Part shown: positions 38,065-45,031 of the stretch, piece by piece
How the letters are laid out: each line of letters starts with the position of its first letter
How positions within the stretch are numbered: position 1 is the stretch's first letter
Assembly: GCA_951406725.2 (NCBI GenBank)
Contig: OX597822.1
Coordinates: forward strand, 89,652,001-89,716,000
DNA length: 64,000 nucleotides
Reading direction: 5' to 3'
Origin: Octopus vulgaris
Lineage: Eukaryota
Made by a program: the position numbers and the translations under genes
The notes under the pieces: generated by a model
What the model was told of the DNA's origin: nothing
Seen by the model: only the letters and a program-made list of their open reading frames with translations
The model's database searches: none

Positions 38065-38382
38065 ATCATCATCGTTTAACGTCCATTCTCCATGCTAGCA
38101 TGGGTTGGACAGTTCGACTGGGGATCTGGGAAGCCAGAAGGCTGCACCAGGCTCCAGTCTGATCTAGCAGTGTTTCTACAGCTGGATGCCCTTCCTATCG
38201 CCAACCACTCCGTGAGTGTAGTGGGTGTTTTTTACGTGCCACCTGCACAGGTGCCAGGCGAGGCTGGCAATGGCCACGATCGGATTGGTGCATTTTACAT
38301 GCCACCGGCACGGAAGCCAGTCAAGGCGGCGCTGGCATCGGCCACGATTCGGATAGCGCTTTTTACGTGCCACCGGCACGGA
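38065..38382 (-). mobile_element. RTE LINE 3' UTR fragment (young)
   Basis: Near-identical reverse complement of 42665-42981. Confidence 0.92.
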
Positions 38383-39684: not shown

Positions 39685-40439
39685 CCACAAAAACAATACT
39701 AAAGAGCTTGTTAAGGTTTCATCAACCATGCTGATTTAACACTGCAATAAAAAAAAAGTACAGGCATTGTACTCTTCTAGCATATCTAACCCATTATAAA
39801 TGGCAGCGAAATCATCAGCTTTGAAAAGGAATGACATTGTCCTTGATGCACTGAACAAAAAGAAATCAGAATTATTTAATCAAAGTTGTGCTGGATCAAG
39901 GCTAAATGGAATTACTGCAACATACATGACAATTCAGTGAAGTGTGTTGGGCGACGACTGGAGAAACTAACAGCTGTGATGCTCCCCCACTACTGCTTGT
40001 GGTCAGAGATGCACATGTCGTCAGCCACTAAGGGACATGCTCAACTGGTTATTATGGTCAAACAACTGACAAGCAAATCTGTGGTATTGAGCAGAATATT
40101 TGCTGTAGCCCATTATTATTATTATTATTATTATTACCAATACTAATTTCACTGTTTCTATACCATAGGTTACTATTTTTGTTGTGAATATTTGCTTTTG
40201 CATAGCTGCTCTTGTTATTATATGTGTTTACCTGTTCAGATATTTATATGATGTGTTTAGCAGTTATTTCCCTTGCTTCGTTTTCTTTGTTAACTTTATT
40301 TTTTTCTGGCTAACCACAAAGTGTGGGTGTTACTGTAGTTACTGTAGCTTTTTAGCCCTAGGAGATCATCGTCTCCAGTTGGCTTTAGACACACTTTCTG
40401 TGCCTTGAAGTATTTGCGAAGGGAGGCCATCCCTTCCTC

Positions 40440-40701
40440 GCAAGCCTGAGTGATACGCACGGACCGGTTTCGAGATTATTGTCTCTTATCAATGGGTGGT
40501 AACCACCAGGTCACGATGAAAGACAAGGCCTGCTTTGCAAATATATAAGAGTTTTTCTAGTGACGTCTGCTACTGATTTCGAAAAACTGACTGTAAGCAT
40601 TATTAAAGCAGGCCTTGTCTTTCATCGTGACCTGGTGGTTACCGCCCATTGATAAGAGACAATAATCTCGAAACCGGTCCGTGCGTATCACTCAGGCTTG
40701 C
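40440..40701. repeat. Foldback element: 97-bp inverted arms (1 mismatch), 68-bp spacer
   Basis: 40440-40536 is the reverse complement of 40605-40701; ATCCCTTCCTCGCAA direct repeat at 40429-40443 and 40704-40718. Confidence 0.95.
40649..40679 (+). ncRNA. Minimal hammerhead ribozyme-like motif, U3-A8 variant (mirror copy at 40462-40492 on -)
   Basis: UUGAUAA-GAGA(caauaa)UCUC-GAAAC-CG-GUC; stem I only partly paired. Confidence 0.55.
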
Positions 40702-40723
40702 AAATCCCTTCCTCGCAATTTGC

Positions 40724-42981
40724 AATGCCACTATGAAAGGTTGCTGAATAAAGAAAATGAATGGGATAAAGAGAGTCTGCTGAATGTCAACCCAACAGAG
40801 GGACCAGCCATCCGAGTTGAAAATTCTTTGGTAGTAAAGCAATTAGAAGCATGAAGACAGGGAAAGCCCCAGGCCCATCAGGAATTACTGCAGAGATGCT
40901 CAAAATATCTGGCAGTGTCGGCTATAACCTAGTCACCCGTATAGTCAACCAGGTGATACACGAAGGAGTCATACCCAATGACTGGTGTAGCAGCATACTA
41001 GTCAACTGCTACAAAGGTAAGGGTGACACCCTAGATACAAATAATTACAGAGGTATCAAGCTGTTGGATCAGGTAATGAAGGTTACGGAGAGGGTCATAG
41101 CCCAACTAATTAGAGAGAGAGTTAGTTTAGATGAGATGCAGTTTGGGTTCGTGCCAGGGAAAAGTACCACTGATGCTATATTCCTGGTAAGGCAGCTGCA
41201 AGAGAAATACCTAGCCAAAGATAAGCCCCTGTACCTGGCTTTCGTTGACATGGAGAAAGCCTTTGACAGGGTCCCCCGATCCCTTATCTGGTGGTCAATG
41301 AGGAAACTAGGGATAGATGAAAGGCTGGTGAGGGCTGTGCAAGCCATGTACAGAGATGCCGTAAGTAAGGTTAGGGTTGGCAACATGTACACAGAAGAAT
41401 TCAAAGTAGAGGTTGGGGTCCACTAGGGTTCAGTACTCAGCCCCCTCCTATTTATCATAGTCCTCCAGGCAATTACGGAGGAATTCAAGACAGGTTGCCC
41501 CTGGGAGCTCCTCTATACTGACGACCTTGCTCTAATTGCTGAGTCACTATCAGAACTGGAGGAGAAGTTCCAGGTGTGGAAGGAGGGTTTAGAATCGAGG
41601 GGCCTTAGAGTCAGCCTAGCTAAAACCAAAGTACTAATAAGTAGGAAGGTAGACAATCCACAAATGTCTTCAGGAAGATGGCCCTGCTCGATCTGTAGAA
41701 AAGGTGTAGGTAGAAACTCTATAAGATGTACCCAGTGTAAGCTATGGACATATAAGAGGTGCAGCAATGTCAAAGGTAGGCTAACTGGGAAGATAGTTTT
41801 TGTATGTGGCAGATGCTCGGGAGCATTAACCTCCGAAAATCTGCAGAAAACAACTTCCGTCACTTTCCAGGGGGAATAACTAGAAGTAGTTGATAGCTTC
41901 CGTTATCTAGGTGACCAAGTCAGTAGTGGGGGTGGGTGCGTTGAAAGTGTAACTGCTAGAATAAGAATAGCCTGGGCAAAGTTTAGGGAGCTCTTACCTC
42001 TGCTGGTGACTAAAGGCCTCTCGCTCAGAGTAAAAGGCAGACTGTATGATGCATGTGTACGAACAGCTATGCTACATGGCAGTGAAACATGGGCCGTGAC
42101 TGCTGAGGACATGCGTAAGCTCGCGAGGAATGAAGCCAGTATGCTCCGATGGATGTGTAATGTCAGTGTACATACTCGACAGAGCGTTAGTACCTTGAGA
42201 GAAATGTTGTACCTAAGAAGCATCAGTTGTGGTGTGCAAGAAAGACGATTGCGCTGGTATGGTCATGTGGCGAGAATGGATGAAGATAGGCGTGTGAAAA
42301 AGTGCCAATCCCTAGCAGTTGAGGGAACCCGTGGAAGAGGTAGACCCAGGAAAACCTGGGACGAGGTGGTGAAGCACGACCTTCGAACTTTAGGCCTCAC
42401 TGAGGAAATGACCAGCGACCGAGACCTTTGGAAATATGCTGTACATGAGAAGACCAGGCAGGACAAGTGAGCCCAGCCCACTTATGCATGCCTTTCCTCC
42501 CTTGGACACAAAGACCTGTTGAGGCAAGCAAAGTCGATATCGAACCTCATCCGACGACAGGCACCCATGCCAACCCCCTTTGCTTGCGAAGACATGTTGG
42601 GGCAAGTGAAATCGAAATTGAACCAATCCTATGACTGGCACCCAGCAGATGCCAGGACGCCTGGACTGGTGGTACGTAAAAAGCACTATCCGAATCGTGG
42701 CCGATGCCAGTGCCGCCTTGACTGGCTTCCGTGCCGGTGGCACGTAAAATGCACCAATCCGACCGTGGCCGTTGCCAGCCTCGCCTGGCACCTGTGCGGG
42801 TGGCACGTAAAAAGCACCCACTACACTCACGGAGTGGTTGGCGTTAGGAAGGGCATCCAGCTGTAGAAACGTTACCAGATAAGACTGGAGCCTGGTGCAG
42901 CCTTCTGGCTTCCCAGATCCCCAGTCGAACCGTCCAACCCATGCTAGCATGGAGAATGGATGTTAAACGATGATGATGATG
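40724..42981 (+). mobile_element. Young 5'-truncated RTE LINE (RT, PHD-like insert, C-terminus, 3' UTR, (GAT)n tail)
   Basis: Single reading frame 40851-42470 broken only by stops at 41424 and 41877; KAPGPSGI, NYRGIKLL, QFGFVPG, FVDMEKAFDRV, LYTDD, FRYLG, GRGRPRKTW. Confidence 0.96.
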
Positions 42982-43530: not shown

Positions 43531-44168
43531 CCCTATTTATTGTAAACAGTATATATATATATATATATATATATATACTACCATTCACCACTTGAAGGAT
43601 AAAGTACATTTGCCAACTACTGACCTATTCTTGGGCAGCTAGTCACTTATTTTTCTAACCAGCAGAGTTGAAACGGTCAGAATTTAGGCTATTTTTAGAA
43701 TACTAAAATGTGTATGGAATATTTTGGTTGGACTTGTACTTAGTTCAGATGGGATCTAAAATGCTATTAATAGCACCCTGAAGAAGCAGCAATTAACACT
43801 AAAATGCACACCAAGATGCAAAATTTTGCAATGTGCATAAAACTGTGGCAGAAATGGAAGGATGTTGTTGACTGCAGAATAAAAATGTATATATAAATCT
43901 CTGTTCTCCTTATTATTAATACATTATTTCTTCTCTACCGACAACATATGTCTCAATAGAGACATGTGGATTTACTAATGTGAAGATTTATTTAGGATAG
44001 TTAAATAAATTAAGTGGAGTTTTTAGCCAGCATTATTAACTGGTAAAAGTTAATATGGTACTCACTAGGATTGTATGTCCCTACCAACCTAATTTAGAAA
44101 TTTACCTCGGCACTAGTTGCCATGACAGATCGTTAGCCACTACACACATTTTTTTCTCCTTGTTTTTT

Positions 44169-44196
44169 CTGTAGAAGAGCGTAGGCTCGAAACGTA
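44169..44196 (+). ncRNA. Hammerhead-like motif with non-canonical position 6, in a probable Penelope-derived tail (~44100-44290)
   Basis: CUGUAGA-A-GAGC(guag)GCUC-GAAAC-GUA flanked by UUUUU / AAAGA stem I. Confidence 0.45.
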
Positions 44197-45031
44197 AAAG
44201 ACTTTTTCTATTCTTGAGCGTTTACATCTGTTTGTTTTGTACACCACCTGTCTTCGTCTTTTGTTTTTTTCGTAAACTCTCCCTAGATATATTATACATT
44301 TGGGATGCTGACATTATTAAAAGTGCACTTTTAAAAATTTTATCTTAAAAAAGTTAGTAATCAGTTTCAAATACTATAGAAGATAGAAAATAATTTGTTC
44401 TTCATCGTTTCAGATTTATATTTGTGAAATATTCAAATTTTATACTGCACATTTTATAATGTTTTAGAAAAATTAAAAAGTTTAATAGAGCATAATGCCA
44501 GAATATTTTAGCAATATAAACAAATTTATATATGAAACAATGAAAGAATAAACTATTCTCGATTCTCTATGATACTGCATACTTAAATTTTCACTCATTA
44601 CTTAGTCTGCTCAGACTACAGAATATAAGTCACTCTTCAGGTTGAGGAATGTAATATAGAAGTTGACTGTTAGCTCAGGGTTTTATTTTAAAAATACATT
44701 CTTAAATTTCTTTGTAGAGCATTGCACAGTGTTTTTGGATAATTGGAAATGTAAGATATAATCATTTTCTTAAATAAATATACAATTTTAAAATCACTGT
44801 AAAAAATCTCACTATATGTTTATTAAAAAAAGCATACCATTTTTTCAAATTATATTCTTTATATAGACAATAGGAACCAGGATTAAATTTTGAGGTAATT
44901 CTTAAAAATTATATTTCATAAAGATTCAATTCTACTAAGGATATAAATATTAATTATCCAAATTTCACTTCCATAAATTTTGTTGGGGCTAAAATTTGTA
45001 TATTGCTTTAAAATGGAAAGTGATAAATTAA

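What the first reader, a model, noticed from the sequence alone, without database searches (positions are those of the whole stretch)
40429..40718. Young 97-bp-arm foldback with U3-A8 covariant hammerhead core and 15-bp flanking direct repeat
Arms differ at 1 of 97 positions, so the structure is recent. Each arm reads UUGAUAA-GAGA(CAAUAA)UCUC-GAAAC-CG-GUC: both changes from the canonical CUGAUGA (C3U, G8A) preserve the known 3-8 tertiary pair, stem II closes with G10.1-C11.1, and stem III is the palindrome ACCGGU, as in dimer-forming minimal hammerheads. ATCCCTTCCTCGCAA flanks it on both sides; 15 bp is more typical of target-primed reverse transcription than of cut-and-paste transposases. Caveat: stem I (CGCCCA/CGUGCG) has two mismatches including the 1.1-2.1 pair. 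A young RTE starts ~6 bp downstream.
Basis: partly seen in the sequence, partly recalled or inferred. Interest (0 to 1): 0.72.

Follow-up and report, generated by a model that had tools for sequence, protein, structure and literature searches.

The report
Broken retrozyme copy beside a LINE
The hairpin is made of two inner pieces of a 355-base non-coding repeat scattered through this animal genome; that repeat carries a predicted self-cutting RNA and is likely pasted in by Penelope-type retrotransposons, but this copy is damaged, and its fold-back and 15-base repeat are likely scars left when a LINE element inserted next to it.

Summary
Both 97-bp arms are internal pieces (positions 72-168) of a 355-nt non-coding unit dispersed through the genome. 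The unit is a non-LTR retrozyme with a type I U3-A8 hammerhead. The hammerhead is supported at family level: 2374 of 2662 core matches pair positions 3 and 8, homologous subfamilies carry U-A or C-G, stems I and II covary, and stem III stays palindromic. Family insertions show Penelope footprints: partial tandems, back-to-back arms, 8-16-bp target duplications, and one short plus one long 3' end. The 290-bp foldback is not an element. The left 15-mer lies inside the unit. The right 15-mer sits in a 23-bp templated filler at the 5' end of a truncated LINE, and about 525 bp of host DNA is missing. Both local hammerheads have lost the 1.1-2.1 pair and lie on opposite strands. U3-A8 cores, retrozymes and Penelope tails are all published. 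This scan found the same kind of element earlier on other DNA of this genome. No partner Penelope with a matching repeat was found, and cleavage and circular RNA are untested.

The parts
40307..40607 (-). Retrozyme copy, unit positions 1-293 of the 355-nt unit. The 3' end is cut inside the conserved hairpin; 8 differences plus a 9-bp duplication against the family majority.
40462..40492 (-). Hammerhead core of the left arm (U3-A8, palindromic stem III). Predicted cut after 40462; stem I has three mismatches.
40440..40536 (-). Left foldback arm = unit positions 72-168, internal to the retrozyme copy
40429..40443 (-). Left copy of the 15-mer = unit positions 165-179, part of a family hairpin; not a target duplication
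40605..40701 (+). Right foldback arm = second, inverted copy of unit positions 72-168, joined to the left copy by a 3-bp overlap; shares the rare 2.1 G-to-A change
40649..40679 (+). Hammerhead core of the right arm. Predicted cut after 40679; the 1.1-2.1 pair is broken.
40702..40724 (+). Junction filler of three short templated pieces (8, 15 and 8 nt, with 1-4-nt overlaps) matching the retrozyme; holds the right 15-mer (40704-40718)
40725..42981 (+). RT domain with in-frame stops, ATG-repeat tail, 1.07% from the majority of its relatives at non-CpG sites.
40112..40301 (.). Left flank: piece of an old repeat, collinear with the right flank in L088 and L082
42976..43561 (-). Right flank: the same old repeat, with Penelope-like RT fragments (motifs recalled; no Pfam hit). 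About 525 bp between the two flanks in L088 is missing from the window.

Best explanation
The foldback is two internal pieces of one damaged copy of a dispersed 355-nt non-coding repeat, a non-LTR retrozyme whose hammerhead is predicted to self-cleave as a dimer and which is likely copied into the genome by a Penelope-type reverse transcriptase; the 15-bp repeat is not a target duplication but likely repair filler made when the adjacent LINE inserted. Family cycle (inferred): a more-than-unit transcript is cut by paired hammerheads through the palindromic stem III, giving a ~355-nt monomer that probably circularises. A Penelope RT-endonuclease nicks both strands of AT-rich DNA 8-16 bp apart. 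It starts copying at two fixed sites 48 nt apart, one per strand, and the two products meet back to back. Local history (inferred): a copy landed in an old Penelope-like repeat and began to decay. A LINE then inserted with loss of about 525 bp of host DNA. The free end folded back on a 3-bp match and re-copied 97 bp, then switched template three times before joining the LINE. I put the family identity at about 0.92. I put this origin of the right arm at about 0.6, a trimmed original second arm at about 0.3, and a single chimeric insertion at about 0.1.
For: Shown. Unit and mapping. Core counts with the same pattern: U3-A8 1468, C3-G8 906, C3.A8 122, U3.G8 166, against reversed controls of 7, 1, 4 and 5. 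A U-A monomer and a C-G monomer are 89% identical, and the window's subfamily is 70% identical to a C-G subfamily. With one sequence from each of 27 clusters, stem I is 77% paired against 52% shuffled and stem II 80% against 44%, with 0 of 5000 shuffles reaching either value; stem III is palindromic in 16 of 27 against 2.5 expected. The search patterns did not require any of these pairings. Eleven monomers of 353-364 nt fold as circles at z -2.7 to -9.4. A contiguous stretch longer than one unit occurs in 32 of 54 loci. Target duplications of 8 bp or more occur in 22 of 54 loci against 16 of 2862 mixed controls. Of 31 two-arm loci, 19 have one short and one long end, none has two short or two long, and 12 have a non-standard end. 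The same two-end pattern appears in other subfamilies and in an intact 784-aa RT + GIY-YIG element, whose own repeat has a U3-A8 core with the same ACCGGT palindrome. Junction. Literature match: PMC7229834, PMC4209133, PMC8557442, PMC11167929; LINE junction precedent in PMC11702581.
Against: No cleavage or circular RNA was shown. Small subfamilies with C3.A8 or U3.G8, one of them with a non-palindromic loop, have also multiplied, so a perfect core is not needed to spread; PMC11167929 likewise found hammerhead activity dispensable for insertion in vitro. The unit shows no sequence match to the terminal repeats of the three Penelope families examined, so the partner is unidentified. Back-to-back arms with 1-5-bp overlaps are the family norm (31 junctions in 54 loci), so the right arm could be original. 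The LINE and the retrozyme copy cannot be told apart in age: 17 of 1590 non-CpG changes against about 4-5 of about 270. Only one rare change is shared between the arms, and it is at a CpG. The left end stops at unit position 293, not at a standard end, which needs its own explanation. Shuffles do not fully remove relatedness.
Confidence: 0.8

Rival explanations
1. Same family, different local history: the right arm is the remnant of the retrozyme's original back-to-back second arm, later trimmed by the LINE-associated deletion, and only the 23-bp filler was made at the LINE junction.
For: Two-arm insertions are common (31 junctions in 54 loci) and have the same 1-5-bp overlaps. The filler begins like a skip across the family hairpin at unit positions 165-194. 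The ages are indistinguishable.
Against: The arms share a change seen in 2 of 66 other copies, whereas rare shared changes are scarce in other two-arm loci (12 shared against roughly 270 private, summed by hand). A difference of 1 in 97 is below the ~5 expected for two arms of the left copy's age (my estimate).
Confidence: 0.3
2. The retrozyme pieces and the LINE arrived in one event, with the LINE's reverse transcriptase switching from its own RNA to a retrozyme RNA.
For: The right arm has the same sense as the LINE and the ages overlap. A Penelope-retrozyme chimera exists elsewhere in the genome.
Against: No target duplication flanks the composite, about 525 bp is deleted, and both arms carry a decay-type CpG change.
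Confidence: 0.1
3. The 355-nt unit is the terminal repeat of an autonomous Penelope element not yet found, and the dispersed copies are its truncated ends.
For: Penelope footprints throughout. U3-A8 is reported in Penelope repeats (PMC4209133). Retrozyme-terminal repeat homology is reported in Xenopus (bioRxiv 10.64898/2026.07.22.740005). Only three Penelope families were examined.
Against: Copies run round the unit in head-to-tail multimers with no ORF between hammerheads. Penelope protein matches among the loci then held were confined to three fetched regions (L061-63, L065, L066) and the old repeat flanking the window, none with the unit as its terminal repeat.
Confidence: 0.08
4. A 262-290-bp foldback DNA transposon (MITE) with 97-bp terminal inverted repeats and a 15-bp target duplication.
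For: Only the appearance at this one locus.
Against: The arms and the 15-mer are internal to a longer unit, and no second copy of the structure was found. Two other foldbacks, L012 and L017, use different break points.
Confidence: 0.02

Closest known systems
Metazoan non-LTR retrozymes (Cervera and de la Pena 2020, PMC7229834; mussel 350-390-bp repeats)
   Same: Non-coding unit of about 355 nt, GC under 50%, one type I hammerhead per unit, tandem copies, long target duplications, highly self-paired predicted circle.
   Different: U3-A8 core in the window's subfamily. Mostly 1-2.4 units per arm, with frequent inverted arms and two fixed 3' ends; the words 'inverted', 'opposite', 'octopus' and 'cephalopod' occur 0 times in that paper's main text. 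RNA was not shown here.
Hammerheads of Penelope-like elements (PMC4209133; U3-A8 variant in Schistosoma Cercyon elements)
   Same: U3-A8 covariation, G10.1-C11.1, palindromic stem III, dimer model, pairs on opposite strands 100-700 bp apart.
   Different: Here stem II is the canonical 4 bp without the extra base, stem I is 6 bp, and the motif sits in a non-coding circular-type unit, not beside an ORF.
Penelope insertion anatomy (PMC8557442; PMC11167929)
   Same: Partial tandems, an inverted 5'-truncated copy, a tail at one end only, AT-rich and microsatellite targets, two RT start sites.
   Different: The tail is 44-60 nt instead of 30-40 nt. The start sites lie about 175 and 222 nt after the cut site. 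In vitro no strand bias of start site was seen, whereas here the two arms of an insertion never share the same standard site (19 of 19).
LINE 5'-junction rearrangements (PMC11702581, human L1)
   Same: Target deletion, inverted duplication and templated insertion with microhomology at a 5'-truncated insertion.
   Different: A germline RTE-type LINE in an invertebrate; the copied DNA happens to be a retrozyme.

Membership tests
Non-LTR retrozyme | Type I hammerhead once per unit of 150-450 bp, in tandem copies | tested here: met
   353-364-nt monomers between successive hammerheads; multimers listed. The window copy itself is under one unit.
Non-LTR retrozyme | Hammerhead conserved by structure | tested here: met
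   Covariation at 3-8, in stems I and II, and palindrome retention; broken at 2.1 in the window copy.
Non-LTR retrozyme | Non-coding, GC under 50% | tested here: met
   No ORF of 80 aa or more over 40307-40718; GC 0.42-0.49.
Non-LTR retrozyme | No LTR, PBS or PPT | not tested
   No search for a primer-binding site or polypurine tract was run.
Non-LTR retrozyme | Target duplications longer than 4 bp | tested here: met
   8-16 bp in 22 of 54 loci against 16 of 2862 controls; none at the window locus.
Non-LTR retrozyme | Highly self-paired circular monomer | tested here: met
   In silico only: z -2.7 to -9.4 for 11 of 11 monomers, 40 shuffles each.
Non-LTR retrozyme | Self-cleavage and abundant circular RNA | not testable with these tools
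   Only contigs of runs guessed to be RNA were available.
Penelope-mobilised non-autonomous element | Partial tandems, inverted 5'-truncated arm, tail at one end, AT-rich target | tested here: met
Penelope-mobilised non-autonomous element | Sequence homology to the terminal repeat of an autonomous Penelope element | tested here: inconclusive
   None for three families; the genome holds many more (12775 first-look candidates).
MITE / foldback DNA transposon | Inverted repeats at the element ends, a flanking target duplication, several copies of the same structure | tested here: not met

The most novel reading that the evidence does not exclude
A Penelope RT dimer engages one circular retrozyme RNA at two fixed start sites and writes both strands of the cut target at once, one site per strand. 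This cephalopod-like superfamily also records the hammerhead 3-8 pair switching between C-G and U-A through C.A and U.G intermediates that still spread. Together these give a natural allelic series for asking whether ribozyme cleavage matters for retrozyme mobility.
Probability: 0.4. Interest if true: 0.65.

Novelty: new member of a known kind. Interest (0 to 1): 0.38.

Why it matters
The locus itself is a dead, rearranged copy and a warning: a long 'target duplication' and 'terminal inverted repeats' can be junction scars. The family matters more. That Penelope elements mobilise animal retrozymes has been argued mainly from co-occurrence and homology (PMC7229834; bioRxiv 10.64898/2026.07.22.740005, which sampled no mollusc). 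Here the insertions carry the Penelope footprint directly, and an intact Penelope with a U3-A8 hammerhead is present in over 100 young copies. The strict short-plus-long end rule and the natural U-A, C-G, C.A and U.G variants can be tested with the in vitro system of PMC11167929.

Tried and rejected
Rfam: no hammerhead model matched; MIR5020 and mir-71 hits reflect the hairpin only. Folding the right arm alone gave no significant fold (z -1.33). Partner search: three copies at about 6-kb spacing on C9 were a local duplication with a Penelope fragment fused to the unit, not terminal repeats. The Penelope-like ORF between foldbacks in L065 has its own different 3' region. Three Penelope families showed no homology to the unit; the hits in L254 and L256 were a piece captured in another repeat. 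Expression: no RNA holder listed; laying four contig sets guessed to be RNA cannot show expression, ends or circles. Empty site: four further contig sets gave no cover of the left flank and no joint, so no answer. Dating the LINE against the retrozyme copy did not separate them. Rows dropped before the counts: L001 and L019 (the window), seven overlapping duplicates, and L061-L065; one end (L003) was reset by hand from 24 to 14 because the alignment ran into the target duplication. Literature searches: hammerhead + Penelope + octopus gave one work, with a passing mention of Octopus; cephalopod + hammerhead + ribozyme + retrotranspos gave three listed works, none on this family; U3-A8 gave only PMC4209133. 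Subscription papers, Repbase/Dfam and supplements (including those of the bioRxiv preprint) were not seen and may hold this family.

Full report
Observation. A LINE with RT-domain hits starts at 40725. The genome is 2.8 Gb in 227 contigs; I take it to be an octopus from recall of its size and repeats, not from any call.

What the arms are. A genome search with 40400-40730 gave 1914 first-look candidates, of which 40 were scored. The best other copies match query 4-208, that is one arm plus DNA upstream of it, and then diverge. Self-comparison of a locus gave a 355-nt period. On this unit the window reads positions 1-293 on the minus strand (40607 to 40307) and positions 72-168 on the plus strand (40605-40701). 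The left 15-mer is therefore inside the unit, and the arms are not termini. The 26-nt core occurs exactly 96 times against 0 for the reversed control.

Is the hammerhead real? One pattern was run with the four combinations at positions 3 and 8. U-A gave 1468 matches, C-G 906, C.A 122 and U.G 166, against controls of 7, 1, 4 and 5; 2374 of 2662 (89%) are Watson-Crick. These are homologues: a U-A monomer and a C-G monomer are 89% identical, and the window's subfamily is 66-70% identical to C-G subfamilies. The patterns did not require pairing. Among 51 U-A contexts, stem I was 87% paired against 59% in shuffles, stem II 91% against 60%, and stem III palindromic in 40 of 51 against 6.75 expected, with seven different palindromic loops. 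With one sequence from each of 27 clusters the values were 77% against 52%, 80% against 44% (0 of 5000 shuffles), and 16 of 27 against 2.5. Against strict constraint: small C.A and U.G subfamilies have also spread, one with a non-palindromic loop. The family has G at 2.1; both window arms have A, seen in 2 of 66 other copies, and the left arm has a further stem I change. The local ribozymes are decayed. They lie on opposite strands, and a read-through RNA folds into a 97-bp duplex.

How the family moves. Eleven monomers are 353-364 nt, 42-49% GC, and fold as circles at z -2.7 to -9.4. A stretch longer than one unit is present in 32 of 54 loci, up to 867 nt, so the template must be a circle or a multimer (inference). 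Target duplications of 8-16 bp, most often 12, flank 22 of 54 loci, and 7 more sit in TA repeats; mixed controls gave 16 of 2862. Of 90 arms, 36 end at unit positions 318-323 and 33 at 7-17, about 48 nt further on. Of 31 back-to-back junctions, 19 pair a short end with a long end, none pairs like with like, and 12 have a non-standard end. Three other subfamilies show the same two ends, as does an intact Penelope element (784 aa; RVT_1, with GIY-YIG just under the Pfam cut-off; 122 scored copies at 97-100%) with a 34-nt tail. One subfamily also has a third end (L131, L140). That Penelope's own repeat carries a U3-A8 hammerhead with the same ACCGGT palindrome. PMC8557442 (passages) describes partial tandems, an inverted 5'-truncated copy and a tail at one end. 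PMC11167929 (parts 1-2 of 4) shows that the tail lies between two RT start sites, that both strands of AT-rich DNA are cut, and that hammerhead cleavage is protein-assisted and not needed for insertion. I infer Penelope mobilisation. The partner was not identified: three families showed no homology to the unit.

How this locus arose. Both flanks belong to one old repeat that is collinear in L088 and L082; about 525 bp present in L088 is absent here. Between the arm and the LINE lie 23 bp made of three pieces matching the retrozyme, 8, 15 and 8 nt long with 1-4-nt overlaps; the middle piece is the right 15-mer. No other listed copy has this junction. Deletion, inverted duplication and templated insertion at truncated 5' ends are described for L1 (PMC11702581, passages). 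I favour fold-back synthesis at the LINE junction for the right arm (0.6), because the arms share a rare change and differ less than their age predicts. The family's habit of making inverted arms keeps a trimmed original arm open (0.3). Ages do not decide it, and the empty-site test gave nothing.

Comparison with what is known. It works like, and meets the testable defining features of, metazoan non-LTR retrozymes (PMC7229834; passages and section 14 seen). U3-A8 and opposite-strand hammerhead pairs are reported for Penelope elements (PMC4209133; parts 1-2 of 4). The Penelope origin of retrozymes is argued in bioRxiv 10.64898/2026.07.22.740005 (parts 1-3 of 5; vertebrates, insects and a coral). 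PMC6962438 (passages) lists 235 hammerheads in giant squid without analysis. My searches found no paper on this family. Eight earlier notes of this scan describe retrozymes with Penelope footprints elsewhere in this genome. They are unchecked AI notes seen after my own analysis; none lies near this locus or matched this copy by sequence.

Verdict. A real but ordinary decayed copy of a new member of a known kind. Interest 0.38, carried by the family-level two-start rule and the natural 3-8 variant series.

Noticed in passing
L260-L265, L254:1420-1780, L256:9275-9670: A ~410-bp repeat with Helitron-like ends (TC start, 3' hairpin then CTAG; class recalled) carries a miniature two-armed insertion of this retrozyme, with both standard ends and a ~10-bp target duplication. 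Its junction 26-mer occurs 3851 times against 0 control, so a retrozyme piece has been amplified by another transposon.
   Followed up: partly
L188:2870-7400 (G000:C9:10.67 Mb): Young intact Penelope-like element in 4.42-kb tandems: a 446-aa ORF without Pfam hit, then a 784-aa RT + GIY-YIG frame; U3-A8 hammerhead in its repeat; 122 scored copies at 97-100%.
   Followed up: partly
L063:6686-8980; L062:7637-8430: The 5' part of a GC-rich Penelope element is fused directly to the retrozyme unit at about position 345 through a short shared stretch, possibly an RT template switch.
   Followed up: partly
L244-L259: Two more young Penelope families with unusual hammerhead cores in their repeats (CCGACGA, and a CTGTTGAAGAGC variant).
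   Followed up: no
window 44010-44290: A hammerhead-like motif at about 44170-44205 resembling the terminal repeat of the third Penelope family, followed by a T-rich 3' stretch.
   Followed up: partly
window 38065-38374 and 42668-42977: A second, inverted copy of the LINE's 3' end (310 nt, 95%) lies 4.3 kb upstream of the LINE's own tail.
   Followed up: no
window 39970-40136: Another high-copy short repeat (1894 first-look candidates, 92-95% identity) ending in an ATT tail; some copies have inverted pieces nearby.
   Followed up: no
L215, L223 and the lists: Retrozyme subfamilies with C3.A8 or U3.G8 cores, one with a non-palindromic stem III loop, occur as multi-copy tandems.
   Followed up: partly
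L065:1888-7301: Two related retrozyme foldbacks flank a broken Penelope-like ORF inside a larger inverted duplication.
   Followed up: partly
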